A stretch of DNA of 64,000 bases, from NCBI GenBank assembly GCA_038912545.1, contig JBCLFD010000002.1, forward strand, positions 4,422-68,421, in the 5' to 3' direction. Source of the DNA: Minisyncoccia bacterium (GTDB lineage Bacteria; Patescibacteriota; Minisyncoccia; Phycocordibacterales; Phycocordibacteraceae). The translations under genes and the position numbers were made by a program. How positions within the stretch are numbered: the stretch's first letter is position 1; each line of letters opens with the position of its first letter. Below the pieces are notes generated by a model, which was given only the letters and a program-made list of their open reading frames with translations, had not been told where the DNA came from and did no database searches. Below, piece by piece: positions 10,413 through 30,430 of the stretch.

Positions 10413-11195
10413 TTAGAATCTCCAACTGAAGAAGCCCCACAGCTTCGCTTGCGACGACGCGACATCTTGGAGGCGCGTCTGTTGCGCCTGCATAGCGGTG
10501 AGCTGTGTTTCCAGCATCGCCTTCACTTCTGCCGAAAGGTTTGCACTTTTCAAGAGTTCGGTAAGTTTCGCAATATTCTCCCCATTGCGTTCTACTGCTT
10601 TACTAATATCTTTGGACGCTTTCTTATCACCACCGAAGAAAAGCTTGGCGATAAACCCGCGCGACTCAATCCGCGCTTCGGCACTCGTCGTGGTCGCGAC
10701 CGAATCGTTCATATGCTTCGCTATTTCCGAGACCTGCGGACCGATACCACCCAAAAGGTCCTTAGACGCGAGCAGGGCGTGCACTGCGAGCCGGACCTCG
10801 TTCGCATTCTTCATCACTTTCCGAAGTTTTGGTGTCGTGCTCGCCTCTTCATCGTCCAATTCATGCTTGCGCTCTTCGATGGACTGTTTCCACTGACCCC
10901 ACGAGAGCGCGGGAGTCGTCGTGCTCTCGCGTTGCAGCTCAAAGCGTTCTATTAACATCTCGCGAGTCTGTTCGCGCATCTCCTTCGCCTGCTCACGTCT
11001 CTGCTCTGCCTGTTGCTTCACGACTTCGCGCACCGTCGCTGACGCGTCACTACCGTCGTCTGAAACACGCACCGAGGTGACTCCCGTCACCTGCGCCGAT
11101 GAATCTCCACGATCTTCATCCGCATGCGCAAGCACCGCCGGCATCCCGCTCAAAACAAGCGCGAACACCCCTGCCATCAATATGTATTTTTTCAT
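10413..11195 (-). CDS. Secreted hypothetical protein (signal peptide followed by coiled-coil / low-complexity sequence)
   Basis: ORF trimmed to the ATG at 11193-11195. MKKYILMAGVFALVLSGMPAVLAHA looks like a Sec signal peptide. The rest is E/R/Q/K-rich helical sequence. No family recognised. Confidence 0.5.
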   Translation of the reverse strand: MKKYILMAGVFALVLSGMPAVLAHADEDRGDSSAQVTGVTSVRVSDDGSDASATVREVVKQQAEQRREQAKEMREQTREMLIERFELQRESTTTPALSWGQWKQSIEERKHELDDEEASTTPKLRKVMKNANEVRLAVHALLASKDLLGGIGPQVSEIAKHMNDSVATTTSAEARIESRGFIAKLFFGGDKKASKDISKAVERNGENIAKLTELLKSANLSAEVKAMLETQLTAMQAQQTRLQDVASSQAKLWGFFSWRF

Positions 11196-11208
11196 ACCCG
11201 TAATGATA

Positions 11209-12978
11209 TCACGCTTTTTGCATTTTATAAAAATACGACTCATGATTCTTAAGGAGGTCTTCGGGCGTTCCTTGTTCTATGATGCGACCATGATTCAAAA
11301 CCAGAATGGTATCGGCTTCGGCGACCGTAGATGGGCGATGCGCGATGATAAACACGGTCACCTTTCCGCGAAGCGCGCGAATGGATTCATGAATGAGCTT
11401 CTCTGATTCGTGGTCCAACGCGCTTGTCGCTTCATCCAAGATGAGTAAGGACGGATTATCAACGAGTGCGCGAGCGAGCGCAATGCGCTGGCGCTGTCCA
11501 CCCGATATCATCACACCACGGTCGCCAACGCGCGTATCGAATCCTTCAGGAAGCGACATCACGAAATCATAAATATTCGCCTGTTTTACAGCCGCAATGA
11601 TATCGTCCATCGATAGTTCGGGTCGATAGAACCGTATATTCTCTTCTATACTGCCGTTGAACATAAAAACATCTTGGGCGACGTAGCCTATATGTGACCG
11701 CCATTCGTTAAGTGAAATATTCTCGGCTGGTACGCTATCAAGTGTCATCTGCCCTGAAGTCGGGGTAAAGAGACGCAAAATGATGTCTGCTACTGAAGTC
11801 TTCCCAACTCCCGAGAGGCCAATAAGGCCCACAGTCTCTCCGCGCTTCACAGAAAAACTTACATCATATAACACTGGCTTACTGTCCGATGCATACGCGA
11901 ACGATACATTCTCAAAAGCAAATTCTTTTTCAAATACAAATTTGTGCGTGCCGTGTCCTTCGTGCTGTGCGTGTTCAGCGAGTGAATTCTTGAAAGTCGT
12001 CATGTTTTCTGCATACGGGAGAAGAGAGACCATGCTATTGAATGCTCCCTGTCCAGATTCTAGATACGTAAATATTTTTTGAATCAAGTAAAGCGCCGCA
12101 GCGAAGGAGATGAAACTGAAACCAGGAGTGTTATACATCACCGCGAAAAGTATCAAGACGAAAATAATACTGAATGGCTGAAAGAGGCTCGTGCCGAGAG
12201 ATTGTGTGAGGGCGAAGCGTGTTTGTAGGGTACGCAAGTTATTCATTAACACATTGCCAGAGGTGAGCGCGTCCTTCTCTTTGCCAGCCACTTTAATAGC
12301 TTTCATGCCGATGACATGTTCGGTTAAGAAATTAGAAATGTCCTTCTCAATCTTTGAGGTCGCGTTACCTATTCGCTGCATTCGCAGCGTAAACGGGCGC
12401 ACGACTCCAAGCAGGACCGCCCCGCCAGCCGCGGCACTTATTGTAACGATTGGTGAGATGTTAATAGCAACTAATAGATACATCAGGAGACCGCTGAATG
12501 ACTGAATAACCTGACTTACCGTTCCGAGTAGACCACTCGTGCACTGCAGATCTCGCACCATCGTGTTGTGTACGTAGCCAAGCTTCTGCTTGAGCAGGAA
12601 TGGCCACGACGCTGAGAAAGCGCGTTTCAAGAGCGCTTGACTCTCGCTGTTGTAATAATCTGCAGATATCCATCCGCGTATATATCCGAACACAACCATA
12701 GATATCGCCCGCACCATAAACATGAAAAGAATGAACGCAATAAGATAGCGAAACTTGAATGGAATCCCGATAAACGCGAAGACGCCCTGTATGGCGCGAG
12801 AAATGAAGTCGGTAGGCACACCACCGCTCGTGAAGAAAGACGCGAGCGGGATAACCGCGTTGACCCCGATACCCTCGACAATAGCCGCCAAAAATCCGAG
12901 AGTGGTGAGTGCCACTATATGCCAACGGTATTTACCGAAAGTATTCCAGAGAGTCCTTGGTGTAGTACCTATTTTCAT
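11209..12978 (-). CDS. ABC exporter, fused permease/ATPase (MsbA-like)
   Basis: 589 aa with an N-terminal 6-TM region. Walker A GLSGVGKTS, signature ISGGQRQRIALARAL, Walker B LLILDEATSALD. Confidence 0.9.
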   Translation of the reverse strand: MKIGTTPRTLWNTFGKYRWHIVALTTLGFLAAIVEGIGVNAVIPLASFFTSGGVPTDFISRAIQGVFAFIGIPFKFRYLIAFILFMFMVRAISMVVFGYIRGWISADYYNSESQALLKRAFSASWPFLLKQKLGYVHNTMVRDLQCTSGLLGTVSQVIQSFSGLLMYLLVAINISPIVTISAAAGGAVLLGVVRPFTLRMQRIGNATSKIEKDISNFLTEHVIGMKAIKVAGKEKDALTSGNVLMNNLRTLQTRFALTQSLGTSLFQPFSIIFVLILFAVMYNTPGFSFISFAAALYLIQKIFTYLESGQGAFNSMVSLLPYAENMTTFKNSLAEHAQHEGHGTHKFVFEKEFAFENVSFAYASDSKPVLYDVSFSVKRGETVGLIGLSGVGKTSVADIILRLFTPTSGQMTLDSVPAENISLNEWRSHIGYVAQDVFMFNGSIEENIRFYRPELSMDDIIAAVKQANIYDFVMSLPEGFDTRVGDRGVMISGGQRQRIALARALVDNPSLLILDEATSALDHESEKLIHESIRALRGKVTVFIIAHRPSTVAEADTILVLNHGRIIEQGTPEDLLKNHESYFYKMQKA

Positions 12979-13850
12979 TTTTTGAAAATCAGGCTCAGCA
13001 TATTACCGTAGAACGCTGGCGATGAAGTCACTTTGTTCCCATCTCCAGTAGACAAAAGTCGCGCGTCCTCAATTATTTTTTTATAATCCTCGATCTCATG
13101 CGCATACGGAGTCTCCAAGTAGAAATAGGTCGAGTCGAGCAAGGAGAGATTAAGCGTTTTAAATAAGTCGATGACTGTGCGCTTCGGAAAATGCAACTGA
13201 TGATCAGCAGTAAAGAGTTTCCATTTATCTCTATAGAGTTCCGCACAAAGACTTTCGGCATTTGGCGTAGCGGTTATGTATATGAGGCCGCCAGTTTTTA
13301 GCCATTTTACTAATTGCGCAATCATAGTTTTCGGATCGGCCATGTGCTCAATAACACCGCGCAAAACAATCACATCAAAATAGTTATCCTGAAACTCGGC
13401 CTCATTCGCTTCTCCTTGCGTAATGTTTAAGTTGAAGACCTCTCGCGCATGTTTAGCTGCTTTTTCGTCAAACTCGATGCCATATTTTTCCCAAGACTCG
13501 CCGAACTTATTTAGTAGAAACCCCCCTCCGCAACCAACATCGAGAATTTTGCCTGATTTGAGATGTTTCTCAAGGAAGCCGATTTCCACTTCGTACATTT
13601 TGTCTCGAGCAATCGAATCTTCATGGTTATTCTGCAATTCGAAATATCCATCCTCATAGAACAAATCACGGCCCTCTCTGTTCAGCTGCAGATTATGATA
13701 TACCAGCCCGCAATCGCCACACTTGTACGCCACGATTGGATCACTCTTTGCCCACTCCTCTCGGCTGGCGGACCCGCAGACATTGCACAACTCAACCTCC
13801 ACAAGGTACTTGGTGAATTTTTTAAGACCTTCGACAGAGTTAGGATTCAT
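12975..13850 (-). CDS. Class I SAM-dependent methyltransferase with an N-terminal Cys4 zinc ribbon
   Basis: CNVCGS...CGDCG followed by ILDVGCGGGFLL and VIEHMADP. ATGA overlap with the ABC gene. Confidence 0.8.
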   Translation of the reverse strand: MNPNSVEGLKKFTKYLVEVELCNVCGSASREEWAKSDPIVAYKCGDCGLVYHNLQLNREGRDLFYEDGYFELQNNHEDSIARDKMYEVEIGFLEKHLKSGKILDVGCGGGFLLNKFGESWEKYGIEFDEKAAKHAREVFNLNITQGEANEAEFQDNYFDVIVLRGVIEHMADPKTMIAQLVKWLKTGGLIYITATPNAESLCAELYRDKWKLFTADHQLHFPKRTVIDLFKTLNLSLLDSTYFYLETPYAHEIEDYKKIIEDARLLSTGDGNKVTSSPAFYGNMLSLIFKK

Positions 13851-13854
13851 GTGT

Positions 13855-15171
13855 CTAGTTAAGTCGTTGAAACCCAGAATGAGCTATTGGGCCTCGCAGA
13901 TGCTTTTCTACTGTCTCAGTATCTATCGCTTTCTTCATGATCGTAAATACTTCGTCAATGGTAGCAAGGTACTTCTTGATGTCTTTCTTCGTGTGAGCGT
14001 ATGACGGATAAAACCTGTTTGCGGCAAGAATGCCGCGTTTGAGCATTTCCTGGGTAAATAATGTCCGCACAGCATTGCTCTTCTCTCCATATACAAAAGA
14101 GAATGATCCCATTGTTGCTGTGCCTTCAATTTTCACATTAATGCCATGCTTTTCCCCACACCTTTTCAAACCTGCGCGCGCCGTCTCACCTATTTGATTA
14201 ATATACTTTGGAACATTCAATCGACGCATTTTTTTAATTGTAGCTAATGCTGCTGCTGGGCCAATACGCTCAGTCCAATACGTGCTCGATATGAAAGTAT
14301 CTTGGGCCGCCTGCATTACATGCTTGCGTCCAATAATAGCCGCCATAGGAAATCCATTGCTCATTCCCTTGCTGAATATTGCTAGATCTGGATTCACTTT
14401 ATATATGAGATGTGAACCTCCTACGTTCATTTTCCAACCAATCGATATCTCGTCGAACACGAGTACGGCTTTCTCGCGTGTCGCTATAGCTCTAATCTTA
14501 TGCAAAAAATCATCCTTTGGTTCCTCCTCATGAATCGGTTCCATTACAATTGCTGCAAGGTTGCCTTTTGCATCATCGACAATTTTATCTAACTCGTCTA
14601 TGCGGTTGTAATGAAAAGGAAGGATGGTTCCGCTCAGACCCTGAGGTACCCCCTTCGGCGAGAGTCCAGAAAGCAAATGATCATTTAGGCCTTTTGGGTC
14701 TTTTAAGTTAGTGGCCAAATACCAGTCGGACCAGCCGTGATAGCCACAAAAAGCTATGATGTCCTTGCCTGAATAAGCTCGGGCGATTCGAGTTGCAACG
14801 GCCATTGATTCCCCGCCTGTACGCGCATATCTCACCATATCTGCCCAGGGGTGAATCTTGCACAGTAGTTCGGCTAGCTCAACTTCCTCCGGTGCGTTCC
14901 ATGTTGCCATTGAACCCTTATCGACCGCCTGCTTTACAGCCTTGTTAACGTCTGCGTCAGCATACCCGAGCGGACACGCGCCGATTCCCATAATCGACAT
15001 GTCTAGGTATTTCTTACCGTCCATATCCCATATATATGCGCCCTTAGCCTTTGAGTAATACGCTGGCCACTGATCCGGAAGGAACATCTCGGCCCGTTTT
15101 GAAAGTAGTTGATTGCCACCAGGAATCAGCTGCTTCGCCCTATTCCATAACTTTTGTCCAGTTCTTTTCAT
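13855..15171 (-). CDS. Class III aminotransferase (glutamate-1-semialdehyde aminomutase / HemL-like)
   Basis: Trimmed to the ATG at 15169-15171 (MKRTGQKLWNRAKQLIPGGNQLLSKR). Other matches: YIWDMDGKKYLDM, VRYARTGGESMAVATRIARA, VFDEISIGW. Confidence 0.85.
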   Translation of the reverse strand: MKRTGQKLWNRAKQLIPGGNQLLSKRAEMFLPDQWPAYYSKAKGAYIWDMDGKKYLDMSIMGIGACPLGYADADVNKAVKQAVDKGSMATWNAPEEVELAELLCKIHPWADMVRYARTGGESMAVATRIARAYSGKDIIAFCGYHGWSDWYLATNLKDPKGLNDHLLSGLSPKGVPQGLSGTILPFHYNRIDELDKIVDDAKGNLAAIVMEPIHEEEPKDDFLHKIRAIATREKAVLVFDEISIGWKMNVGGSHLIYKVNPDLAIFSKGMSNGFPMAAIIGRKHVMQAAQDTFISSTYWTERIGPAAALATIKKMRRLNVPKYINQIGETARAGLKRCGEKHGINVKIEGTATMGSFSFVYGEKSNAVRTLFTQEMLKRGILAANRFYPSYAHTKKDIKKYLATIDEVFTIMKKAIDTETVEKHLRGPIAHSGFQRLN

Positions 15172-15194
15172 AGTATATTGATGAGTATAACAGC

Positions 15195-15950
15195 CTATGT
15201 GGCCTTCCAAGAAGCATTCCTTTCCACTTCAGAAGTCAATTTTTTGATGTCCGGGCTTTCGTCAAGAAATTCCAATATGTCCTTCATGGTAAAGATTGGT
15301 TTCCTGGACGCAAGACTCTCGTAAACTCGCTTAAGCAGTTCGTAATCTTCCGGATAATCTAACGTAAGGCGGTAGCACGCCTGGTTACTTATGCTGTTTC
15401 TATACTGCCCAATTTTAAATATCTCTGGGTTCTTCCAGAAATAAAACGTGACGTGTTCTCGGTGGGACGTTTCAGTTGCCTCTTTCCACGCTTTTTCTAG
15501 GGCAGCAAATGTAAATACCTCGGTGTCCATTCCGTCAGGATACGTGTACGGCTCTAGATTATTGGACGCATAGTCATAATCTCCCGATCTAAAGAACTGA
15601 ATGGTCTCGTCAATAATCTTAGGATCTATAAGCGGACAGTCTGAAGTCATGCGTACGATGATATCTTCCTTTTGTGCACCAAATGCTTTCGCGGTTTTAT
15701 AATACCTATCAAGAACATCATCCTCGCTTCCTACAAAATACGGCTGATGAATTTTCTCAAGAAATTGAACAAGGGCCACGTCTTTTGGGTTTTCAGTAAC
15801 CGCTACTACAATTTTATCTATACTTTTGCTGGCTGTTACACGTTCAAGCATGCATTCTAGAATCGATTTGCCCGGGGCGATTTCTAGTAGCACCTTGCCA
15901 GGCAGACGAGTTGAGTTCATGCGTGCTTGAATGATTGCGATTGTGGACAT
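15195..15950 (-). CDS. Cytidylyltransferase, SpsF / acylneuraminate cytidylyltransferase family
   Basis: The N-terminus MSTIAIIQARMNSTRLPGKVLLEI is typical of the CTP_transf_3 family. Confidence 0.8.
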   Translation of the reverse strand: MSTIAIIQARMNSTRLPGKVLLEIAPGKSILECMLERVTASKSIDKIVVAVTENPKDVALVQFLEKIHQPYFVGSEDDVLDRYYKTAKAFGAQKEDIIVRMTSDCPLIDPKIIDETIQFFRSGDYDYASNNLEPYTYPDGMDTEVFTFAALEKAWKEATETSHREHVTFYFWKNPEIFKIGQYRNSISNQACYRLTLDYPEDYELLKRVYESLASRKPIFTMKDILEFLDESPDIKKLTSEVERNASWKAT

Positions 15951-15965
15951 GGAATATTTTACTTG

Positions 15966-17003
15966 CTACGCAATGCCAAGATATTTTTTTAGCATTTTTA
16001 TTTGCTTTTCAACGGATGGCGTATTCTTTTTAAGAAGGCCGTTACCGGCTGAAATACCTATAATCGACGTTGGGTGTTCAATGTCATCAACGATAACCTC
16101 ACCACGACGACCGAAGATTCCGAGGGACACTAGCATAGTGTCTATTTCTTTTATTTCCCTACGGCCCAGAGGCTTCTTGTAGAGATCCTTCTGCCCGACA
16201 AGCGCCGAAAAGAAATGTTTCTGAACTATCGACACATCAAGACGGTAAACGACACCCGATGAGTTCTTAGTAACATCATCAGCAAAACAGCCCTTGCCAA
16301 CATCGATCAGTACTGCAGATGACGACGCTGTCTCCAGCATTTTTTTGCTGACAATCTCTTTTTCATTTGTAACCGCAATGACTACGTTTGCACCTCTGCA
16401 GGCACTTTCGATACTCGTTGCAGAAATAATCTTAGCCATGGTGTTTTCAGATTTAATGCTATTTAGGCCTGCAACAATAAATCTTAGCTTCTTCTTATTT
16501 CTACGAAACGCAGACACGTTGACGCCCCTTTCGACCAGCTTAAGAGCGATTTTTGACCCGAGATTTCCAAGACCGATAATTGCACACGTGGTGCCGCTTA
16601 CAACTGGTATGCTGTTCCCGACCAGCATGTTTGTCGCCTCTGCCGCCAAATCATTACCTTTGTAGGTAAGCATTCTAGATTTCTTGATAATCGCACGTAG
16701 CGGTTTTTCTATATTACCCCTGTCATAGTCATGTGGTCCGTAATATATCTTCCGTATCTTTTTCTCGTCATCGACAAAAATGTTGTCGACCTTGCCGTCT
16801 ACCAAGAGCGCAATGTCCATCGCCGTTTCAACATCTCGCACAATTACCCCTCCATAAACAATGGAGGACGTTTCTCGGTTTGGTATTTCGTAGAATCTAC
16901 CGCGCGGAAATATATCGGACGTATTTCCTATAACAAATCCTGTCGGCCGTCCGTTCGCAATCTCCTTTATCTTTTTAACCTGCTCGGCTATTTTAGCTTT
17001 CAT
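15966..17003 (-). CDS. Rossmann-fold NAD(P)-binding protein, family not recognised
   Basis: CAIIGLGNLGSKIALKLVERG is a dinucleotide-binding loop. The start was chosen at the ATG at 17001-17003 (ATGA overlap with the upstream gene); the track start is 17021. Confidence 0.45.
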   Translation of the reverse strand: MKAKIAEQVKKIKEIANGRPTGFVIGNTSDIFPRGRFYEIPNRETSSIVYGGVIVRDVETAMDIALLVDGKVDNIFVDDEKKIRKIYYGPHDYDRGNIEKPLRAIIKKSRMLTYKGNDLAAEATNMLVGNSIPVVSGTTCAIIGLGNLGSKIALKLVERGVNVSAFRRNKKKLRFIVAGLNSIKSENTMAKIISATSIESACRGANVVIAVTNEKEIVSKKMLETASSSAVLIDVGKGCFADDVTKNSSGVVYRLDVSIVQKHFFSALVGQKDLYKKPLGRREIKEIDTMLVSLGIFGRRGEVIVDDIEHPTSIIGISAGNGLLKKNTPSVEKQIKMLKKYLGIA

Positions 17004-19426
17004 ACGATAACGTGCTCCCATCTAATCGGATAGTCGGCTGCGATGGTTGTTTTTGCAACTTTGCCCACCACCGAATCTAGATACTTCGGCAAGATTGCAC
17101 CGCCAGGACCCTTAATCGCAAGCATCGCTACAGTAATTTTCTGACCCTCTTTGATATTCACCTTGGCGTAGAGGCCTTTCTTGAAACGGCTTATTGTTTC
17201 TATCTCACTTCCCATTATCTTTTTTTCCGCATGTCCCTTTATGAGATGTATCGTGCGGCTTAATCTAACCAATTCTTTCATCTCTTCTGGATCAGACGAT
17301 AATATGTGGTCAGGACCTTCCATAAATCTATCAAACGTGAAGTGTCGTTCTATCGCCACAGCTCCTAATGAGAGCGCTACAGTAGCTGCGGTAAGTCCTA
17401 TTGAATGGTCCGAAAAGCCGACCGGCACGCCAAAGGTTTTGTGAAGTGTCTTCATGACACGAAGATTCATATCTTCTGGTGACGCCGGGTACGAGGAGAC
17501 GCACTGCAACAAAATTAGGTTTTTATTTCCGGTGCCCCAAATGACGTTAATTGCATCACTAATTTCACTGAGAGTGGACATGCCGGTAGACATAATGATT
17601 GGCTTGCCGGTCTCTGCAACTCGTCTAAGGAGTGGCAAATTTGCCACATCCATAGATGCTATCTTATAGAACTCGCAGCCGACTTTCTCCAAAAGTTCTA
17701 AATTCTCTATGTCGAATGGAGAGGAAAAAATTGGTATCCCAACTTTTCGTGCATACGAAAACAGCTCCTCGTGCTCCTTGGGACCAAACTCAAGTCTCTT
17801 AAGCATCGAAAACGCGGACTCTTCAGTGTCTATAAGCTCCTCGGCATATCGACTGTCTTTCACTTTTTTTGACAGTCGGTTCTCAGCGCGATAACTCTGG
17901 AATTTTACAGCCGAGCACCCAGCTTTGTGCGCAGCGTCAATTAATTGCTTCGCGAGCTTTACCGAGCCATTATGATTAAGTCCAATTTCGGCAATTATAA
18001 AAGCCGGTAAGTCGTACGCAACACGATGAGAACCGAGCATGACCTCCACATTAGTACGTGAACTCTTGGTGCTTCTATTTTCTTCAACATTGTGTACCTC
18101 GCTCGCCTCATTAACAAGTCTTTCTGCGAGGTCACGGCCTTTTACTGCGAGAATTTGCAAATCAGCGTAGTGATAATCGCCACCTGTCCCGATAAGGTGG
18201 AGCTGTTTGAATGCTGCCACCTTTGCACGCACATTTGTGAGGTCATTTTCCATGCCGATTGTCAAAAGAGGATACACGTACGGCAAAGATATAACCTTTC
18301 CAGCGTACGCCTCACCTTTTTTTATTAATCCAACTTTTATGAGATCCTGTATCCCGCGATTCAACATCTGTTTATCCGATACGGCATCGAGCGAGTCATC
18401 TTTTCTATAGGACGCTTCGAGGGTTAAAACGGTTTTGCCTTTAGGAAACCCGTAGCTGCAAAACTTCTTCTGTTCGCTAAGTCTGTGAAATAATACGTCT
18501 TCGTTGTCGTAGTAAAGGAAACTGGCTTCTTCTGGAATCACCTGGTCTTTGTTTATGGCTACAAAAATAAGTTTTGCACCACGATACAAAAGCGAGTTAC
18601 GGACACCGAGCAAATCGGCAAGAACTGGAAGTGGCATTGTTGAAACAACAGTATCGTTCTCACCGACACTTACTTTCTCTGATCCAAATACAAGACTCGA
18701 TATTGTAGTGTCATACGTTTCTATATCAGTTAACGCACAATTGAGGCGAAGTTCCCCGCCTAATGTCGAAAATTTTTCTGCCATACGGGAAAGAATGGCA
18801 CCTGACCCATACTTACCCACAGCACTCCATTGTCCGGCATGAAAATGACCCTTTGTCCGCCCAAAGTTTACGCGTTTAGGCGCCCAATTGGCGGTCATCT
18901 CTTCTACTGAAACGCCCCAGAGTTTTTCTGGATATTTAATGAAGAACAATTTCATGAGCGTCGGTCCGACTAGCTCGAGCACGTACTGACGATAATTCCT
19001 TGCAAGAGCTCTGCGTGTTTCGTCGACGCCAGCAATTTCTTTAAGAATCTTTGCGCGCAACTTACCAGGAAACGCTTGGAGCGAATCGAACGAAAGTGGG
19101 TAATCAAAATATTGATCGAAGTTTTTACCCTTCACGTTCTTACCCCAGAACTCATTCTTATGAAATAAATCTCCATACTCCTTCTCCCATATCTCGGCTT
19201 GCTGTTCGTCAGGGGTATGATAAATGTGTGGTCCGTAGTCGAGGCCATGAAACTCCTTCCAATCAAAACTGCCGGCCAAACCTCCGATCTCAGACCCTTT
19301 TTCAAAAATGGTAACTGGCATGCCGAGTTCCGCCATACGAAGTCCGACCGAGAGTCCGCTCATTCCGGCTCCGATGATAAAAGCCCTTCGTTTAGGGAAA
19401 ACTTTTCTGACTGACTTGTTTACCAT
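17000..19426 (-). CDS. Fusion protein: N-terminal FAD-dependent oxidoreductase (amine-oxidase / UDP-galactopyranose-mutase-like) plus C-terminal NeuB-type nonulosonic acid synthase with a SAF domain
   Basis: 808 aa. The N-terminus has AFIIGAGMSGLSVGLRMAELGMPVTIFEKGSEIGGLA (FAD GxGxxG). From about residue 470 it has PAFIIAEIGLNHNGSVKLAKQLIDAAHKAGCSAVKFQSY, GFSDHS and a C-terminal SAF-like tail. The domain boundary is near 18020. Confidence 0.85.
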   Translation of the reverse strand: MVNKSVRKVFPKRRAFIIGAGMSGLSVGLRMAELGMPVTIFEKGSEIGGLAGSFDWKEFHGLDYGPHIYHTPDEQQAEIWEKEYGDLFHKNEFWGKNVKGKNFDQYFDYPLSFDSLQAFPGKLRAKILKEIAGVDETRRALARNYRQYVLELVGPTLMKLFFIKYPEKLWGVSVEEMTANWAPKRVNFGRTKGHFHAGQWSAVGKYGSGAILSRMAEKFSTLGGELRLNCALTDIETYDTTISSLVFGSEKVSVGENDTVVSTMPLPVLADLLGVRNSLLYRGAKLIFVAINKDQVIPEEASFLYYDNEDVLFHRLSEQKKFCSYGFPKGKTVLTLEASYRKDDSLDAVSDKQMLNRGIQDLIKVGLIKKGEAYAGKVISLPYVYPLLTIGMENDLTNVRAKVAAFKQLHLIGTGGDYHYADLQILAVKGRDLAERLVNEASEVHNVEENRSTKSSRTNVEVMLGSHRVAYDLPAFIIAEIGLNHNGSVKLAKQLIDAAHKAGCSAVKFQSYRAENRLSKKVKDSRYAEELIDTEESAFSMLKRLEFGPKEHEELFSYARKVGIPIFSSPFDIENLELLEKVGCEFYKIASMDVANLPLLRRVAETGKPIIMSTGMSTLSEISDAINVIWGTGNKNLILLQCVSSYPASPEDMNLRVMKTLHKTFGVPVGFSDHSIGLTAATVALSLGAVAIERHFTFDRFMEGPDHILSSDPEEMKELVRLSRTIHLIKGHAEKKIMGSEIETISRFKKGLYAKVNIKEGQKITVAMLAIKGPGGAILPKYLDSVVGKVAKTTIAADYPIRWEHVIV

Positions 19427-20184
19427 AAAGTAAAACCGCCATCGACCGCGATGTTCTGTCCTGTAATATACCGCGCATCAGAAGAGGCCAAAAAAAGAAC
19501 TGTTCCGACCAGATCATCCGTTGTCGCCATGCGCGCAAGAGGCGTCTTCTTTTCATACTTCCTCACAAATGAGGAGTCTTGGGCACGGGCGACACCACCT
19601 GGAGAAATCGCGTTTACCGTAATTCCGAATTTAGCCAGATACACAGCGAGATAGGACGTAAAGTGAATGATGCCGGCCTTTGTTGCGCCATAAATCTCCG
19701 AACTGTTTCGACCAGAATTACCGTAAATCCGAAAGTCTGGAGTGGTTATGCCGTAGATCGAACCGAAATTAATAATCGTCCCTTTACGGCGCGTTTTCAT
19801 TTTTTCCATAACAGCTTTTGACATCAGGATAGTTCCCTTTAAGTTTGTTGCCATAACGTCATCAAGTTCTTTTTCGGTACGCTTTTCGAGCGGGGTGTAT
19901 ACTCCTATTCCTGCGCAGTTTATCAGAATATCTATAGAGCGAGATGCTTTGCGAAGAATGGACTCTATGGACTTTGTCGTCTTTATATCTCCCGATACAA
20001 ATATATAATTTTTGCGCAATTCGCCGAGTGAGTCTATGTATTTTTGGTTTGGTTTTTTCTTCAAGTCAATAGCGTACACAAAGGCGCCATTCGCAAGAAA
20101 GGCTAGCGACAGCGCGCGACCAATTTGGCCATCGGCGCCAGTAATGAGCACCGTTTTGTCGGTCAGGTCGTAGCGGTTTGCCAT
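19420..20184 (-). CDS. Short-chain dehydrogenase/reductase
   Basis: VLITGADGQIGRAL, NCAGI, YGATKAG (YxxxK). ATG at 20182-20184; the track start 20193 is a TTG. Confidence 0.85.
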   Translation of the reverse strand: MANRYDLTDKTVLITGADGQIGRALSLAFLANGAFVYAIDLKKKPNQKYIDSLGELRKNYIFVSGDIKTTKSIESILRKASRSIDILINCAGIGVYTPLEKRTEKELDDVMATNLKGTILMSKAVMEKMKTRRKGTIINFGSIYGITTPDFRIYGNSGRNSSEIYGATKAGIIHFTSYLAVYLAKFGITVNAISPGGVARAQDSSFVRKYEKKTPLARMATTDDLVGTVLFLASSDARYITGQNIAVDGGFTLW

Positions 20185-20196
20185 ATGTAACAATTA

Positions 20197-22110
20197 CTAT
20201 AACCTAGTGACTGTACCAGAGGTAGCAGGAACTTTGGTCGCAAAGGATTGTATAAAAGCTGCAGCCCGCTCACTAGAATGCCCATCAAAAAGGTAGTTCT
20301 TCTTAAGAAATGCCTCCGCGCCTGCGGAAAGAGCCTCTCGAAGCTTCGGGTCGCTCACTAGACTCGAGATTTCATTGGTAAGCTCAGCCTTTGTGGTGGC
20401 GATGCGCATGGCTCCCTCTTTTTCATAATAAGAGAAGTGATGAAGCCCCATCATTTTCTGTTCTGGTGAAAGCCCTAAATAAATGGACGGGACACCGGCT
20501 TGGAGCGACTCAATTAGCGCAGTCGAGTAACAAGATATCGCAATGTCTATCCTTGGCAACAAGCTCGCAAGCGTCTCGAATTGCGCTATTTCATACGGTG
20601 TCTCCACAAATAATCTCGCCAGCGACGTTCGTACAAATGTGTCGCGATTTGGCCCGGGTCGGAACTTAAATATTACGCGCGCGTTTGGTATTTGTCGCAC
20701 AGCCTCTGCGACGGCCTGGTAGTAATCGTACGTCTCATAGGTGTCAGGCGAGTCACCTCCAGGGTCAATTGCTGGTGAGACACACAATATTGTAATCTGA
20801 TCTTTATCTTTAGATGCAGATACTGGAGCTCTACTATTCTTCGCTCGAACATAAACATCAAAACGTGGTGAACCAATTTCAATGGCCGTGGTAGAAGTGT
20901 CGCCAACCCCCTCCATTTGCTGTCTCGTTAGCGGTCCATATACGCAGGTGAATTCTGCATGATGACGCAGACTAACCGAGCCTGGCCCGTAATACTCGAG
21001 ACCGTGCTGCATCTCAATAGATGGAATACCAAGTGATTTCGCTACTTGTGCTAACACGACAAAATGCGTCTGTGTGCTTACGGTAGAGCGCAAGATGACA
21101 ACATGTGGAGAGACACGCTCAAGCATCGCGTGAGTATCGTCAATATCCTTTAGGACACGCGTGACAGCATCGCCAATGATCGAATCCAGGGCACTGGTCA
21201 ACAGCCCGCCCAGGCCAACGCCACGATAGGCGAACGCGTCTAGGCTGTGGTCACCTTTAATAGCCTTCCATTCCTTTCTTATGTTTTCACTCGCCTCTTC
21301 ACGATGCTTCGTACTTGTCACTACAAATGAGTCTCCGTGTATGAAACGCATTCGAAACCGCCAAATGTTTCCAAGTCCTGCGTTAAATGATTCCAATCGA
21401 TCATTCAATATTATTTCTGCAGAATCAAGATTCTTCACGTACGGGGAGATATTCTTCCAATAATCACTCGCGAGGATCCGTATCTTCTTAGGGCGCACAA
21501 GTATTGCAATTACAGTATTCAGTAAAAATATACAGACGCCAAACATAGTCCTCTTGAGCGCAAATATCGTCTGTCCAGACTTCATGGAAAGTGTCGTTGA
21601 TGTAGGTACAACGAGTATCTCCTTCTTAGTTTGAACAGCGACAGCGCTTACTGCATCAACGCATGCGTTGATGACATGACGTACGAGAACACTGCCGAAA
21701 GAAGGTCCGCCAGTTCCATGCGAAAAAACAATGAGTCGTTCGATACTTGGGTGCTTTGCAAGAACAGCTGCCACAATATCCACGTAATAAAAAAGATGCG
21801 TGAGGTACCCCTGAAGTGAAAGGAAGTACAGCTGCGACAGATTTACTCCGCGATACGAAAAAAACGACCATCTCTTGCTCTCCAATATTTGAGCTGGCCA
21901 CTGTTCCCCGAGCTCAACGGAAGAAGTGTCGGGCGTCCGATATCGCAACCCAGAGATGAAAGGCATTCCACGCGAAGACATGTAGTCTTCTATCTCGGCG
22001 TCGAGTGGAATAACTAACAATGTGTCGCGATATTCTTCTGCAATTGCCACGAGAGACTCTATTTGTTCTATCCTATGCAAAAAAATGACCACCTTCTTCT
22101 TGTTGTCCAT
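20197..22110 (-). CDS. Hypothetical 637-aa protein; the C-terminal half is possibly a GT-B / capsule-biosynthesis-like transferase
   Basis: Long intact ORF. The C-terminal region (ITILCVSPAIDPGG ... IAISCYSTALIESLQAGVPSIYLG) resembles the nucleotide-sugar-binding half of GT-B / TagF-like enzymes. The assignment is weak. Confidence 0.4.
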   Translation of the reverse strand: MDNKKKVVIFLHRIEQIESLVAIAEEYRDTLLVIPLDAEIEDYMSSRGMPFISGLRYRTPDTSSVELGEQWPAQILESKRWSFFSYRGVNLSQLYFLSLQGYLTHLFYYVDIVAAVLAKHPSIERLIVFSHGTGGPSFGSVLVRHVINACVDAVSAVAVQTKKEILVVPTSTTLSMKSGQTIFALKRTMFGVCIFLLNTVIAILVRPKKIRILASDYWKNISPYVKNLDSAEIILNDRLESFNAGLGNIWRFRMRFIHGDSFVVTSTKHREEASENIRKEWKAIKGDHSLDAFAYRGVGLGGLLTSALDSIIGDAVTRVLKDIDDTHAMLERVSPHVVILRSTVSTQTHFVVLAQVAKSLGIPSIEMQHGLEYYGPGSVSLRHHAEFTCVYGPLTRQQMEGVGDTSTTAIEIGSPRFDVYVRAKNSRAPVSASKDKDQITILCVSPAIDPGGDSPDTYETYDYYQAVAEAVRQIPNARVIFKFRPGPNRDTFVRTSLARLFVETPYEIAQFETLASLLPRIDIAISCYSTALIESLQAGVPSIYLGLSPEQKMMGLHHFSYYEKEGAMRIATTKAELTNEISSLVSDPKLREALSAGAEAFLKKNYLFDGHSSERAAAFIQSFATKVPATSGTVTRL

Positions 22111-28539: not shown

Positions 28540-30375
28540 TTACTGCTTCGCAATTGGAACACTGGCAGGAGTGGTCTTGTAGAGCGACTTTTCAAAGAGC
28601 CATCGGCGAGCGACACCGCCCAGCTCATCAAACTGCCGTCCGGGCAACGCATCCATCTTGATTGCTCCGCTTAGAACCACGTGCCGCGTAAATTCGGCGC
28701 TTGAAGGAAAGAAGACAAAATAGTAGGGATTGTCACGTACCACGCTAGGAAGCTCGTCTTGTGAACGGCATCCGAGCGCTTCGACGAGTTTATGTACCCA
28801 CTGCTGCGCCTCATGCCCTTCTTCGGCCATCTCGAAGTGTGCCTTGGCGACCTGCCCAAGCTTCTTCCAGGACCACTCCTCTCTCGGGAGTGTTAGGTAC
28901 CGCTCCGCCAAGTCGCGCGCCCCTGGAATAAGCGCGAACCACATGAAGAGTCGCTGGAGGATGACGATCTGGTCGGCATACCGATCGTTCTCGACATCAT
29001 CCATAAACTCAATCGTGCAGAGCGGTTTCGGCCCCGGCAAGTACTTGCGGGAAAATTCATCCCGCTCATCACGAACCGATACTTCCGCAACCAGTGGCGC
29101 CACTTCCCGTGCCTCGAGACGCTCGAGCGGGCTCTTTTTGTGACGTTGGGCTCGCTCCAGCTCCTTGTTGGCTTGCACCATTGCTCGCACCACCGGTTCG
29201 ATGACATTTCGTGCCGTTTTCGAATGGCGCATGACGCTCCGGTCGAAGAACAACTCATGTAGATCATCATTTTCACCCTTGTAGTACCCGAATGCTTTGG
29301 CAACATCCCCCATTTCCGTGCCCCCATAGGGAGCGAGAATCGAGGTCCATGCCATCTCGGGTCCAATGCGACTGTTAAGATCAAGCGTCGAGAGATCAGT
29401 TTCGAGATTGCTGAACGGCACAGCGAGGATTTGTTCCGTCCGCAGAGTCATCCCCCGCGAACGAATCTTTGCACACCCCTCGAGAATGAGCTCATCCGTC
29501 ATTTCACGATGCAACACATGCTCGCGCAAAAATGAATCCCCCGATTCAATAGCAAGCGTAATGCCGGTGCACCCTGCGGTTGTGAATAAGTCCAACCGTT
29601 CATCGCCCGAACGATTTTCCGTGAGCTCCAACCGAATCTGGCAGTGGAAAGGAATTCTAACTTCCTCTTTCCACCGTTGTGCAAACTCCCGAAGCCATGT
29701 CAGTTTGAAGCCAAAGATGTCGTCCTGCAGATAGACCATGCCAGCTCCCCAGCGCTCGCGGATTTCAACACCTTCACTGATGATGTCGTCCACGGAACGC
29801 TGTGTATGAGTGAATCCGCCGTACATCTTGTTCCACTCCGGCGCATAGCAGTAACTGCAAGTGAACGGGCACCCCACCGAGGTAATCATACTCCTGATGG
29901 GGCTGTCGCGAAGCACTGGGTACTTGTCGTACACAATGCTTCGGTTCGGCATGGGAAACTTCTCCGCCAATTGCTCGGTGTCGAAGTGCAATCCCGGCCC
30001 GATTTCTCCCTCAAGAATGCGACGAAAGTTTCGAAACCCATCGCCACGGACTACGTAATCCGCGTGCTTCAGACACTCGTCGGTGAAATAAGTCACATGT
30101 GGCCCGCCAATGATGACTTGTGGTCCCTTGAGACGTACCCGATCGCACGCAGCAAAGGTCTGTAGATGCCACCCGGTCCAGATCTGGAAGCCGACGAAGT
30201 CTGGCTTCCACTCCTCCACGCGCCGATAGAGGCCTGTGAAGTCATTCTCTGGAATGAGTTCTACGTCCACTTCGCAACCGATTGATGAGGCGAGCCCGAT
30301 GAGATGCAGAAGTCCCAAGGGCTCGATGATGTAATACCGTGCTACGAGCAGCACTTTCGTTCTGTTCGTGTTCAT
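28540..30375 (-). CDS. B12-binding-domain radical SAM enzyme with an unrecognised ~230-aa C-terminal extension
   Basis: Start at the ATG at 30373-30375, preceded by AGGAGG. The N-terminus KVLLVARYYIIEPLGLLHLIG is cobalamin-binding-domain-like. CPFTCSYC is the CX3CX2C cluster motif. Confidence 0.85.
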   Translation of the reverse strand: MNTNRTKVLLVARYYIIEPLGLLHLIGLASSIGCEVDVELIPENDFTGLYRRVEEWKPDFVGFQIWTGWHLQTFAACDRVRLKGPQVIIGGPHVTYFTDECLKHADYVVRGDGFRNFRRILEGEIGPGLHFDTEQLAEKFPMPNRSIVYDKYPVLRDSPIRSMITSVGCPFTCSYCYAPEWNKMYGGFTHTQRSVDDIISEGVEIRERWGAGMVYLQDDIFGFKLTWLREFAQRWKEEVRIPFHCQIRLELTENRSGDERLDLFTTAGCTGITLAIESGDSFLREHVLHREMTDELILEGCAKIRSRGMTLRTEQILAVPFSNLETDLSTLDLNSRIGPEMAWTSILAPYGGTEMGDVAKAFGYYKGENDDLHELFFDRSVMRHSKTARNVIEPVVRAMVQANKELERAQRHKKSPLERLEAREVAPLVAEVSVRDERDEFSRKYLPGPKPLCTIEFMDDVENDRYADQIVILQRLFMWFALIPGARDLAERYLTLPREEWSWKKLGQVAKAHFEMAEEGHEAQQWVHKLVEALGCRSQDELPSVVRDNPYYFVFFPSSAEFTRHVVLSGAIKMDALPGRQFDELGGVARRWLFEKSLYKTTPASVPIAKQ

Positions 30376-30430
30376 GAGACCTCCTAGTAGAAAGAACATT
30401 CGACGGAATGCCGAAATCTGCACCAAAGTA

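What the first reader, a model, noticed from the sequence alone, without database searches (positions are those of the whole stretch)
17000..19426. Unusual fusion of an FAD-dependent oxidoreductase to a NeuB-type nonulosonic acid synthase
A single 808-aa ORF combines two domains. The first ~470 aa form an FAD-binding amine-oxidase / UDP-galactopyranose-mutase-like domain (GAGMSGLSVG...FEKGSEIGGLA). This is followed by a complete NeuB/SpsE-like aldolase domain plus SAF domain (IIAEIGLNHNG...KFQSY...GFSDHS).

NeuB-family enzymes that I know (NeuB, PseI, LegI, SpsE) are stand-alone proteins. The fusion suggests channelling between a flavin-dependent oxidation or isomerisation of the hexose precursor and the PEP condensation. 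That would make a non-canonical 9-carbon (or related) keto-sugar acid.
Basis: partly seen in the sequence, partly recalled or inferred. Interest (0 to 1): 0.55.

Follow-up and report, generated by a model that had tools for sequence, protein, structure and literature searches.

The report
Flavin mutase-like domain fused to NeuB
One intact 808-residue protein joins a flavin enzyme built like UDP-galactopyranose mutase to a sialic-acid-type (NeuB) synthase; the fusion is real, occurs from ultra-small groundwater bacteria to ocean SAR11, has apparently never been studied, and probably starts an undescribed route to an activated acidic surface sugar.

Summary
Window 17000-19426 (- strand) is one uninterrupted 808-aa ORF with three parts: a UGM-type FAD domain, a 30-residue flexible linker, and a complete NeuB barrel plus SAF domain.

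It is not an assembly artefact. The same architecture is found in at least 55 species-level genomes of more than 10 phyla, including a cultured Arcobacter, a complete SAR11 chromosome and an archaeon. The fused NeuB domains form one clade (SH-aLRT 99), separate from true PseI and true NeuB/LegI.

The flavin domain is a mutase relative, not an amine oxidase. It keeps the two UGM arginines and the tyrosines that hold the nucleotide diphosphate. The synthase keeps every metal, PEP and catalytic residue, but the essential Arg314 is an invariant Gly.

The gene almost always sits next to an unknown two-domain NAD(P) dehydrogenase (48 of 54 loci). It usually also has a PtmA-like SDR, a CMP-transferase and an aminotransferase. 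The window's genome and a complete SAR11 genome lack the NeuC/LegG and PseG hydrolases.

Best reading: this enzyme starts an undescribed CMP-ulosonic-acid pathway, and the flavin domain probably processes the NDP-sugar precursor for the synthase. The architecture is common but I found no study of it. This scan has met the family at least 10 times before on other DNA.

The parts
19420..20193 (-). PtmA-like short-chain dehydrogenase (257 aa); its stop overlaps the start of the fusion gene
   Evidence: Pfam adh_short_C2 2e-44. The best NCBIfam match is PRK09186 at 182 bits, and FlagModPtmA scores 129 bits; both are below their cut-offs. A homologue is present in 35 of 54 fusion loci.
18107..19387 (-). 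UGM-type FAD domain of the fusion (residues 14-440)
   Evidence: GxGxxG at 19-24. The best solved relatives are K. pneumoniae and E. coli UGM (phmmer 7e-12, profile 2e-23). The Foldseek matches for this half are UGMs 5hhf, 4dsg and 5eqf. R185, R315, Y165, W170, Y385, Y420 and D422 align with KpUGM R174, R280, Y155, W160, Y314, Y349 and D351, and all are invariant in 20-25 homologues.
18005..18106 (-). Flexible interdomain linker (residues 441-474)
   Evidence: Poorly conserved columns in alignment A1. Residues 441-456 have pLDDT below 50 in the AlphaFold2 model.
17225..18004 (-). NeuB-type PEP-dependent aldolase barrel (residues 475-734)
   Evidence: PF03102 1.4e-87. E480, K508, Q510, K588, S591, S613, Y646, S672, H674, E693, H695 and D706 align with N. 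meningitidis NeuB E25, K53, Q55, K129, S132, S154, Y186, S213, H215, E234, H236 and D247, and all are invariant in the family. The clade-specific loop R517-E536 carries a 4-residue insertion.
17009..17173 (-). SAF / antifreeze-like domain (residues 752-806); the essential Arg314 of NeuB is replaced by the invariant G773 (KGPGG)
   Evidence: PF08666 8.8e-09. Alignment to 1xuu. Invariance of G773.
15966..17021 (-). Obligate partner: an uncharacterised two-domain NAD(P)-binding dehydrogenase (351 aa); its start overlaps the fusion's stop by 22 nt
   Evidence: Present in 48 of 54 fusion loci, usually directly downstream. Only weak Rossmann hits in Pfam, NCBIfam and PDB sequences. AlphaFold2 pLDDT 92. 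The nearest folds are DpaA and D-2-hydroxyacid dehydrogenases at Z 16-17. It is fused to the enzyme in one marine contig, P0197.
15195..15950 (-). CMP-sugar-type cytidylyltransferase (CTP_transf_3, 251 aa)
   Evidence: PF02348 2.8e-31. The N-terminal part resembles KdsB. One of two CTP_transf_3 types, or a NeuB'-CTP_transf_3 fusion, is present in most fusion loci.
13855..15210 (-). HemL-like class-III aminotransferase (451 aa)
   Evidence: PF00202 6.4e-48. PRK06209 scores 280 bits, below its cut-off. Found in 18 of 54 loci; a DegT-type aminotransferase is found in 17.
12975..13850 (-). SAM-dependent methyltransferase (291 aa)
   Evidence: Methyltransf_23/11. Found in 14 of 54 loci.
11209..12978 (-). 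ABC exporter (fused membrane and ATPase parts, 589 aa) closing the operon
   Evidence: ABC_tran and ABC_membrane. A homologue is found in 24 of 54 loci.

Best explanation
The ORF encodes a genuine bifunctional enzyme of a widespread, uncharacterised family. An N-terminal flavoenzyme of the UDP-galactopyranose-mutase type is tethered by a flexible linker to a catalytically complete NeuB-type synthase, which condenses phosphoenolpyruvate (PEP) with an aldose.

It works with an obligate, translationally coupled NAD(P) dehydrogenase of unknown family. In this window it also works with a PtmA-like SDR, a CMP-transferase, a HemL-like aminotransferase, a methyltransferase and an ABC exporter. Together these make a CMP-activated 3-deoxy-2-ulosonic (sialic-acid-like) sugar for a surface glycan. 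The route does not use the NeuC/LegG or PseG hydrolases of the known pathways.

Shown here:
- the fusion itself, its single origin and its wide spread;
- the conserved NDP-diphosphate-binding residues in the flavin domain;
- the conserved metal, PEP and catalytic residues in the synthase;
- the loss of the Arg that reads the substrate's acetamido group in NeuB;
- the gene linkage.

Inferred (about 1 chance in 3 for this specific step): the flavin domain binds the NDP-sugar precursor and uses reduced FAD N5 to displace the nucleotide, as UGM does. It then releases the sugar as free open-chain aldose directly to the neighbouring synthase. On this reading it takes over the job of the missing hydrolase.

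The identity of the sugar is unknown, and so is the step catalysed by the dehydrogenase.
For: Intact ORF and domain calls.

The same 790-830 aa architecture occurs in at least 120 protein clusters at 45-95% identity, with both halves strongly conserved (mean column identity 64%) and a variable linker. It occurs in 55 species-level genomes, including Arcobacter iocasae KX21116 and the complete Pelagibacterales CODY6 chromosome.

The fused NeuB domains form one clade with SH-aLRT 99. This clade is distinct from sequences that pass the PseI or NeuB/LegI equivalog cut-offs.

A split version keeps the order SDR / UGM-like / NeuB / DH. One contig carries a triple fusion that includes the dehydrogenase.

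The UGM residues R174, R280, Y155, W160, Y314, Y349 and D351 are all conserved. The structural neighbours are UGMs. The NeuB catalytic set is conserved, and R314 is G. The role of R314 comes from PMC11339185.

Linkage across 54 loci: DH 48, SDR 35, CTP_transf_3 21+15, aminotransferases 18+17, RmlA-like nucleotidyltransferase 19, NDP-sugar epimerase/dehydratase 25.

There is no PF02350 hit over the cut-off and no PseG in the window's genome (82% complete), in SAR11 CODY6 or in a 0.8-Mb Patescibacteria genome. 19 of 40 fusion-bearing genomes have no PF02350 hit over the cut-off. The window's genome has a single NeuB domain.
Against: No biochemical data exist for any member.

Conservation of UGM residues fits an ordinary pyranose-furanose mutase equally well. 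Hydrolytic release of the flavin-sugar adduct has no known precedent as a physiological reaction.

The AlphaFold2 model gives no defined interdomain geometry (pTM 0.55), so channelling is not supported structurally.

About half of the fusion-bearing genomes do have a PF02350 gene. The absences are mostly in incomplete MAGs and SAGs.

Loss of Arg314 is also seen in mammalian Neu5Ac-9-phosphate synthase (PMC11339185). A sugar-phosphate substrate that needs no NDP-sugar cleavage is therefore possible.

A subset of loci carries a second, intact NeuB'-CMP-transferase directly after the dehydrogenase. The simple linear pathway does not explain this.
Confidence: 0.6

Rival explanations
1. The flavin domain is an ordinary NDP-pyranose/furanose mutase. 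It makes an NDP-furanose for the same glycan. It is fused to NeuB only for co-expression or complex stability, and the synthase gets its aldose from elsewhere.
For: All UGM substrate-binding residues tested are conserved. UGM is the nearest fold. A large stand-alone sister family of 425-485 aa sits in glycan loci without NeuB. RmlA-like and NDP-sugar-modifying genes are frequent neighbours.
Against: The fused N-domain clade is essentially never found unfused. The rare split form keeps the two genes adjacent and in order. The fusion has been kept since a single origin across more than 10 phyla. That is more than co-expression usually explains. This reading also leaves the source of free aldose open in genomes without NeuC/LegG/PseG.
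Confidence: 0.2
2. The flavin domain is a true oxidoreductase. It oxidises a hydroxyl or amine of the precursor (possibly C6 of an NDP-hexose) to the aldehyde that the NeuB domain then condenses with PEP. The product would be a non-canonical higher-carbon keto acid.
For: Pfam Amino_oxidase and DAO matches. The fold is shared with protoporphyrinogen oxidases. KpUGM R343 is lost and Y185 is Phe. The NeuB beta2-alpha2 loop is remodelled and basic (R517, K523, R526), so it could hold an anionic distal group. The partner resembles enzymes that act on 2-oxo or imino acids.
Against: Sequence and profile searches rank UGMs far above any oxidase: 2e-23 for UGM, against about 4e-10 for protoporphyrinogen oxidase and 1e-7 or weaker for amine oxidases, and the oxidase matches cover little beyond the dinucleotide-binding stretch. 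The residues that are conserved are the ones UGM uses to hold the diphosphate next to the flavin.
Confidence: 0.12
3. The flavin domain acts after the synthase. It would act on the ulosonic acid or its CMP derivative, for example by ring contraction to a furanosidic ulosonic acid or another flavin-N5 adduct reaction at C2.
For: A CMP-transferase is usually in the operon. UGM chemistry needs a nucleotide-activated anomeric carbon.
Against: The anomeric carbon of a 2-ulosonic acid is quaternary, which is unfavourable for N5 attack. The conserved Arg pair fits a diphosphate rather than a CMP monophosphate. No precedent is known.
Confidence: 0.05
4. The two halves are separate genes that were joined by an assembly or frameshift error.
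For: No read or contig from public runs bridges nt 18005-18055.
Against: More than 100 independent assemblies show the same continuous frame, including complete genomes of isolates. The linker has variable sequence but conserved length. No indel appears in the contigs that could be laid.
Confidence: 0.01

Closest known systems
Bacterial nonulosonic acid synthases NeuB / LegI / PseI / SpsE (PF03102 + SAF; N. meningitidis NeuB 1xuu, C. jejuni PseI 8h2c, B. subtilis SpsE 1vli, Leptospira 6ncs)
   Same: Same TIM-barrel plus SAF architecture, at 31-38% identity. All metal (H674, H695), PEP (K508, K588, S591, S613, S672) and catalytic (E480, E693, D706) residues are conserved. It is followed in the operon by a CMP-transferase, as in the known pathways.
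   Different: It scores below both equivalog cut-offs (TIGR03569 355.7 vs 399.65; TIGR03586 294.1 vs 340.25). It forms a separate clade. The essential Arg314 is an invariant Gly. The beta2-alpha2 loop, which contacts C6-OH in NeuB, is replaced by a longer conserved basic loop. It carries a 440-residue flavin domain at its N-terminus. The hydrolase of the known routes (NeuC/LegG/PseG) is absent from several carrier genomes.
UDP-galactopyranose mutase (Glf/UGM; K. pneumoniae 1wam/3gf4, E. coli 1i8t, T. cruzi 4dsg, A. fumigatus 3ute) and related NDP-pyranose/furanose mutases
   Same: Same fold. The FAD-binding GxGxxG, the GPH motif, the two diphosphate-binding arginines, the uridine-pocket Tyr/Trp and the Tyr-x-Asp C-terminal motif are all conserved.
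   Different: Only about 20-25% identity. It is far below the UGM equivalog cut-off (TIGR00031 55.9 vs 303.75). KpUGM R343 is Thr/Gly and Y185 is Phe. It is always fused to NeuB. Its nearest unfused relatives are the uncharacterised PRK07208-type flavoproteins, not Glf.
Legionaminic / pseudaminic acid pathways (LegB-C-H-G-I-F; PseB-C-H-G-I-F)
   Same: Overall logic: NDP-sugar tailoring genes, an aminotransferase, a synthase, a CMP-transferase, and a PtmA-like SDR as in Campylobacter flagellin-modification loci.
   Different: No hydrolysing 2-epimerase or PseG. In this window the aminotransferase is HemL-like (class III) rather than DegT. An obligate extra dehydrogenase of unknown family is present. 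The synthase is fused to a flavoenzyme.

Membership tests
NeuB-family nonulosonic acid synthases (PF03102 + SAF) | NeuB TIM-barrel domain above the Pfam gathering score | tested here: met
   293.6 bits vs 22.1, covering model positions 1-240 of 241.
NeuB-family nonulosonic acid synthases (PF03102 + SAF) | C-terminal SAF / antifreeze-like domain | tested here: met
   PF08666 36.2 bits vs 21, residues 752-806.
NeuB-family nonulosonic acid synthases (PF03102 + SAF) | Metal ligands (His215, His236) and catalytic and PEP-binding residues (Glu25, Lys53, Gln55, Lys129, Ser132, Ser154, Ser213, Glu234, Asp247; NmNeuB numbering) | tested here: met
   All align with identical residues in P0001 and are invariant in 25 family members.
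NeuB-family nonulosonic acid synthases (PF03102 + SAF) | SAF-domain Arg314, which H-bonds the substrate's acetamido carbonyl. It is essential in NmNeuB and conserved in bacterial NeuS enzymes (PMC11339185). | tested here: not met
   It aligns with G773 (KGPGG vs KRPGNG). Gly is invariant in the family. PseI, SpsE and stand-alone NeuB sequences keep Arg.
NeuB/LegI equivalog (TIGR03569) and PseI equivalog (TIGR03586) | Score above NCBIfam's curated cut-off | tested here: not met
   355.7 vs 399.65 and 294.1 vs 340.25. In the tree the fused clade is separate from sequences that do pass these cut-offs.
NeuB-family nonulosonic acid synthases (PF03102 + SAF) | PEP + aldose condensation activity, and the identity of the aldose | not testable with these tools
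   Needs an enzyme assay.
UDP-galactopyranose mutase family (PF03275 GLF / TIGR00031) | GLF domain above the Pfam gathering score | tested here: met
   29.2 bits vs 26.3, residues 161-342. This is a marginal pass.
UDP-galactopyranose mutase family (PF03275 GLF / TIGR00031) | UGM equivalog score | tested here: not met
   TIGR00031 55.9 bits vs 303.75.
UDP-galactopyranose mutase family (PF03275 GLF / TIGR00031) | The two arginines that bind the UDP diphosphate (KpUGM R174, R280) and Tyr155, Trp160, Tyr314, Tyr349, Asp351 | tested here: met
   The profile-to-3gf4 alignment maps them to R185, R315, Y165, W170, Y385, Y420 and D422. All are invariant. The roles of these UGM residues are recalled from the UGM literature and were not re-read here.
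UDP-galactopyranose mutase family (PF03275 GLF / TIGR00031) | Galactose-contacting Arg (KpUGM R343) and Tyr185 | tested here: not met
   R343 aligns with T414, which is Thr/Gly in the family. Y185 aligns with F195. The assignment of these residues to sugar or phosphate contacts is from memory.
UDP-galactopyranose mutase family (PF03275 GLF / TIGR00031) | Pyranose-furanose interconversion with reduced FAD | not testable with these tools
   Needs an enzyme assay.
Flavin amine oxidases (PF01593) | Full-length match and oxidase-type active site | tested here: inconclusive
   The Pfam hit (46.3 bits) covers only model positions 1-260 of 443. In the PDB profile search, oxidases match only the first ~55 residues, the dinucleotide-binding motif, whereas UGMs match along the domain. 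Oxidase active-site residues were not examined.

The most novel reading that the evidence does not exclude
The UGM-type domain is not a mutase. It is a flavin-dependent 'unmasking' enzyme. Reduced FAD N5 displaces the nucleotide from an NDP-sugar, and the ring-opened flavin-iminium adduct is hydrolysed. The acyclic aldose passes straight to the tethered NeuB active site. This would be a third, mechanistically new solution to the nucleotide-removal step of nonulosonate biosynthesis, replacing NeuC/LegG and PseG. With the obligate dehydrogenase, it would produce a so far undescribed ulosonic acid, possibly without a 5-acetamido group, on the surfaces of SAR11, CPR bacteria and many other environmental microbes.
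Probability: 0.27. Interest if true: 0.8.

Novelty: new variant of a known kind. Interest (0 to 1): 0.58.

Why it matters
Sialic-acid-like sugars shape how cells are seen by phages, predators and hosts. Their biosynthesis is thought to follow three well-mapped routes: Neu, Leg and Pse.

This family marks a fourth, uncharacterised entry point. It is present in some of the most abundant organisms on Earth (SAR11, SAR86, SAR116), in genome-reduced CPR bacteria with 0.5-1 Mb genomes, and in magnetotactic bacteria, Omnitrophota and an archaeon.

If the flavin domain really processes the NDP-sugar for the synthase, that would extend flavin-N5 covalent catalysis to a new reaction. It would also explain how these genomes make a nonulosonate without NeuC/LegG/PseG.

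The family also offers a defined three-protein unit (fusion, dehydrogenase, CMP-transferase) from a cultured carrier (Arcobacter iocasae) that can be tested directly.

Tried and rejected
Read-level check of the junction. One public run (a glacier metagenome, kept as contigs) holds 23% of the sampled words. Its 3-4x contigs cover most of the gene with strain-level substitutions and no indels, but none bridges nt 18005-18055. No RNA holder was listed. This is therefore not informative about the frame at the linker or about expression.

Complex prediction. I intended to test docking of the dehydrogenase on the NeuB half.

Foldseek on the dehydrogenase model. The top hits were ornithine and aspartate transcarbamoylases at TM about 0.4 and rmsd above 9 Å. 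I discarded these as generic two-Rossmann-like-domain matches. The exhaustive VIA search gave DpaA and D-2-hydroxyacid dehydrogenases at Z 16-17 with many near-ties, so only the fold class is claimed. The classical Arg-Glu-His triad of D-2-hydroxyacid dehydrogenases is not met, because the family has no invariant His.

ESM Atlas look-up of the dehydrogenase. It returned only 'hypothetical protein' clusters.

Literature. Eight full-text searches combined NeuB, nonulosonic acid or N-acetylneuraminate synthase with FAD-dependent oxidoreductase, UDP-galactopyranose mutase, fusion, flavin, Pelagibacter or Patescibacteria. None found a paper on this architecture. The large NulO-synthase phylogeny PMC8208679 contains no mention of fusion, FAD or oxidoreductase.

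Inference from loss of Arg314 to 'substrate lacks an N-acetyl group'. I weakened this because mammalian Neu5Ac-9-P synthase also lacks this Arg.

Dehydrogenase as a dedicated NAD(P)H:flavin reductase for the UGM-like domain. I considered this. I could neither test nor exclude it. The conserved charged residues in its N-terminal domain (R49, D84, E86, K87, K121, N123, D124) suggest a small-molecule substrate instead.

One P0099 contig look-up found no record.

Full report
THE OBSERVATION

Window 17000-19426 on the - strand is one ORF of 808 codons with an ATG start and no internal stop.

Pfam places an FAD/NAD(P) Rossmann motif, Amino_oxidase, DAO and GLF (UDP-galactopyranose mutase) matches in residues 14-342. 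It places a full-length NeuB domain at 495-734 (E 1.4e-87) and a SAF domain at 752-806.

NCBIfam scores the C-terminal half at 355.7 bits on the NeuB/LegI equivalog and 294.1 bits on PseI. Both are below the curated cut-offs of 399.65 and 340.25. The N-terminal half matches the 'PRK07208 hypothetical protein' models best, and UGM itself reaches only 55.9 bits against 303.75.

IS THE FUSION REAL?

A search of 5.8 billion proteins returned at least 120 cluster representatives of 783-841 aa with the same Pfam set at 45-95% identity. Source labels range from Paceibacterota and Kaiserbacteria to Elusimicrobia, Marinimicrobia, Gammaproteobacteria, Thermodesulfobacteriota, Margulisiibacteriota and Anaerolineales.

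In an alignment of 25 of these, both halves are strongly conserved, with 64% mean column identity and more than 150 invariant columns. Residues 441-474 are variable. The same stretch is disordered in the AlphaFold2 model, which has mean pLDDT 83.1 and pTM 0.55.

A scan of one genome per prokaryotic species gave 55 loci that carry both halves in one frame. They include the cultured Arcobacter iocasae KX21116, a complete Pelagibacterales chromosome (CODY6), many SAR11, SAR86 and SAR116 single-cell genomes, Magnetococcales, Omnitrophota, Nitrospirota, Planctomycetota, Terriglobia, Bacteroidota and a Nitrososphaerales archaeon.

Public reads could not add to this. The one run that holds the stretch gives 3-4x contigs with no indels, but none crosses nt 18005-18055. 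Given the comparative evidence, a frameshift artefact is effectively excluded.

WHAT THE TWO HALVES ARE

The N-terminal half is a UGM relative rather than an amine oxidase.
- The best solved sequence matches are all UGMs: phmmer 7e-12, and 2e-23 with a family profile. Oxidases match only the first ~55 residues.
- Foldseek pairs this half with fungal, trypanosomal and bacterial UGMs.
- The profile alignment to K. pneumoniae UGM maps R174, R280, Y155, W160, Y314, Y349 and D351 onto R185, R315, Y165, W170, Y385, Y420 and D422. All of these are invariant in the family.
- In UGM these residues hold the UDP diphosphate and uridine next to the flavin. I recall this from the UGM literature and did not re-read it here.
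- KpUGM R343 and Y185 are not kept; they become T414 and F195. This suggests a sugar moiety other than galactose.

The C-terminal half keeps every residue that NeuB uses for the metal, PEP and catalysis. E25, K53, Q55, K129, S132, S154, Y186, S213, H215, E234, H236 and D247 correspond to E480, K508, Q510, K588, S591, S613, Y646, S672, H674, E693, H695 and D706.

Two features set it apart.
- First, Arg314 of the SAF domain is an invariant Gly here. In NmNeuB this Arg H-bonds the acetamido carbonyl of ManNAc and is conserved in bacterial enzymes. It is absent from mammalian Neu5Ac-9-P synthase (PMC11339185).
- Second, the beta2-alpha2 loop, which contacts C6-OH in NeuB, is replaced by a longer conserved loop rich in basic residues (R517, K523, Y527-A-E529).

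SINGLE ORIGIN AND DISTINCT CLADE

I built a maximum-likelihood tree of 101 NeuB domains from the fetched loci. It places 52 UGM-fused domains in one clade with SH-aLRT 99. Their truncated or split versions fall in the same clade.

Control sequences from the same loci that pass the PseI cut-off (475-504 bits) or the NeuB/LegI cut-off (474-511 bits) fall elsewhere in the tree. Within the fused clade, taxonomy is scrambled. For example, the archaeal sequence sits among Zetaproteobacteria, Nitrospirota and Omnitrophota. The gene has therefore moved horizontally.

The N-domain clade is essentially always fused. An exhaustive profile search of 1.84 billion representatives lists about 27 fused clusters at 50% identity above 300 bits. 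Scores then drop to 278 bits or less for a large stand-alone family of 425-485 aa, with 1376 representatives at E below 1e-30. That stand-alone family sits in glycan loci without NeuB.

A rare split form keeps the order SDR / UGM-like / NeuB / dehydrogenase.

CONTEXT

The gene lies in a tightly packed - strand operon. From upstream to downstream:
- PtmA-like SDR (19420-20193; its stop overlaps the fusion's start);
- the fusion;
- a 351-aa NAD(P)-binding protein (15966-17021; it overlaps the fusion's stop by 22 nt);
- CTP_transf_3 cytidylyltransferase (15195-15950);
- HemL-like class-III aminotransferase (13855-15210);
- methyltransferase (12975-13850);
- ABC exporter (11209-12978).

Upstream of the operon lie a C-methyltransferase, a GT2, rmlABCD and a B12-radical-SAM enzyme.

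Unbiased clustering of ORFs in 54 fusion loci shows how often each neighbour recurs:
- the 351-aa protein in 48 loci, nearly always adjacent;
- the SDR in 35;
- CTP_transf_3 of two types in 21 and 15;
- class-III and DegT aminotransferases in 18 and 17;
- NDP-sugar epimerase/dehydratases in 25;
- RmlA-like nucleotidyltransferases in 19;
- ABC exporters in 24;
- methyltransferase in 14;
- aldo-keto reductase in 13.

Three layouts recur:
- Type I: SDR-FUS-DH-CMPT-AT3 (this window).
- Type II: FUS-(SDR)-DH-(MT)-CMPT-AKR.
- Type III: FUS-DH followed by a 586-aa NeuB'-SAF-CTP_transf_3 protein with an intact catalytic set.

THE DEHYDROGENASE PARTNER

The partner has no family assignment. Its model is confident, with pLDDT 92. 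It resembles dipicolinate synthase A, D-2-hydroxyacid dehydrogenases, the ornithine-cyclodeaminase/mu-crystallin group, PylD and shikimate-dehydrogenase-like enzymes at Z 14-17. These enzymes act on carboxylate-bearing substrates, often at C2.

The family has no invariant His, so it is not a classical D-2-hydroxyacid dehydrogenase.

One marine contig encodes a 1141-aa protein in which this partner is fused behind UGM-like+NeuB. That supports functional coupling, but it is a single, unreplicated assembly.

MISSING HYDROLASE

Known nonulosonate routes free the hexose from its nucleotide with NeuC/LegG (PF02350) or PseG. Three genomes have neither above the cut-off:
- the window's genome (534 kb, 82% complete, a single NeuB domain);
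- the complete SAR11 CODY6 chromosome;
- a 0.8-Mb Patescibacteria genome.

19 of 40 fusion-bearing genomes have no PF02350 hit over the cut-off. Many of these are incomplete, so this is suggestive rather than proof.

HOW IT MOST LIKELY WORKS

Firm inference: this is a bifunctional enzyme that starts an undescribed pathway to a CMP-activated 3-deoxy-2-ulosonic acid for a surface glycan.

Weaker inference, at about one chance in three: the flavin domain binds the NDP-sugar made by the neighbouring nucleotidyltransferase and tailoring enzymes. It displaces the nucleotide with reduced FAD N5, as UGM does. It then releases the ring-opened sugar to the tethered synthase, so it supplies the function of the absent hydrolase.

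The remaining alternatives are:
- an ordinary mutase fused for other reasons;
- a true oxidase that makes an aldehyde;
- action on the ulosonate or its CMP ester;
- a sugar-phosphate substrate, as in animal Neu5Ac-9-P synthase.

The second NeuB' in type III loci and the role of the dehydrogenase are unexplained.

COMPARISON AND NOVELTY

The protein works like a NeuB-family synthase and like a UGM-family flavoenzyme. It fails the equivalog tests for NeuB/LegI, PseI and UGM, and it lacks the essential NeuB Arg314.

Databases already carry automatic names for it, such as 'sialic acid synthase SpsE/protoporphyrinogen oxidase' and 'FAD-dependent oxidoreductase'. Eight literature searches found no study of it.

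The architecture is common rather than unusual.

Earlier notes of this scan describe the same family in at least 10 other genomes with the same general conclusion. I reached my reading before consulting them.

I rate it a new variant of a known kind, with moderate-to-high interest because of its breadth (SAR11, CPR) and the possible new flavin chemistry.

Noticed in passing
L015:13500-15260, L022:4699-6459, L018:6888-8654 and 10568-12337, L016:5742-7514, L040:13460-15211, L029:7253-8995, L020:8275-10032: A second family of fused NeuB proteins of about 586 aa: a divergent NeuB' barrel, a weak SAF domain and a CTP_transf_3 cytidylyltransferase. It sits directly after the dehydrogenase in 'type III' fusion loci. 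The catalytic residues are intact. It forms a deep separate clade (SH-aLRT 100). Why an operon needs two PEP-condensing domains is unexplained.
   Followed up: partly
L066:8405-10120, L067:1777-3489, L067:8861-11752: Further NeuB fusions in Elusimicrobiota: CTP_transf_3-NeuB-SAF (570 aa), and a 963-aa protein with an unassigned 400-residue N-terminus followed by NeuB-SAF-CTP_transf_3.
   Followed up: partly
L088:499-3924 (protein P0197, marine metagenome contig of 4.3 kb): A 1141-aa triple fusion of UGM-like + NeuB + the unknown dehydrogenase. Its dehydrogenase part, residues 875-1130, matches the window's partner at E 2e-13. It is seen on one contig only, so a lost stop codon cannot be excluded.
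   Followed up: partly
L083:561-4737: A split version of the system: SDR, a UGM-like protein (446 aa), NeuB+SAF (369 aa; the two ORFs overlap by 56 nt) and the dehydrogenase, in the same order as the fused operon. In the NeuB tree it is closest to the Arcobacter sequence.
   Followed up: partly
window 20197-22110 (-): A 637-aa ORF with no Pfam family and only a faint BFO_1060 glycosyltransferase-like C-terminus (26 bits). It is conserved only in the two closest relatives (L004, L011). It is a candidate transferase for the unknown sugar, as another first-stage note also suggested.
   Followed up: no
L086:6001-7401, L087:6001-7401: The stand-alone PRK07208-type sister family of the flavin domain (about 466 aa). 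It sits among methyltransferases, PMT-type and GT9/GT2 glycosyltransferases and Wzm/Wzt exporters. It is itself an uncharacterised UGM-like family, with more than 1000 clusters at 50% identity.
   Followed up: no
L003:20089-21606; window 28540-30426; L004, L011, L015, L021, L040: B12-binding radical SAM enzymes recur within 10 kb of the fusion in 7 of 54 loci. Radical SAM/SPASM enzymes recur in 9 loci, mostly type III. This hints at further unusual tailoring of the sugar.
   Followed up: no
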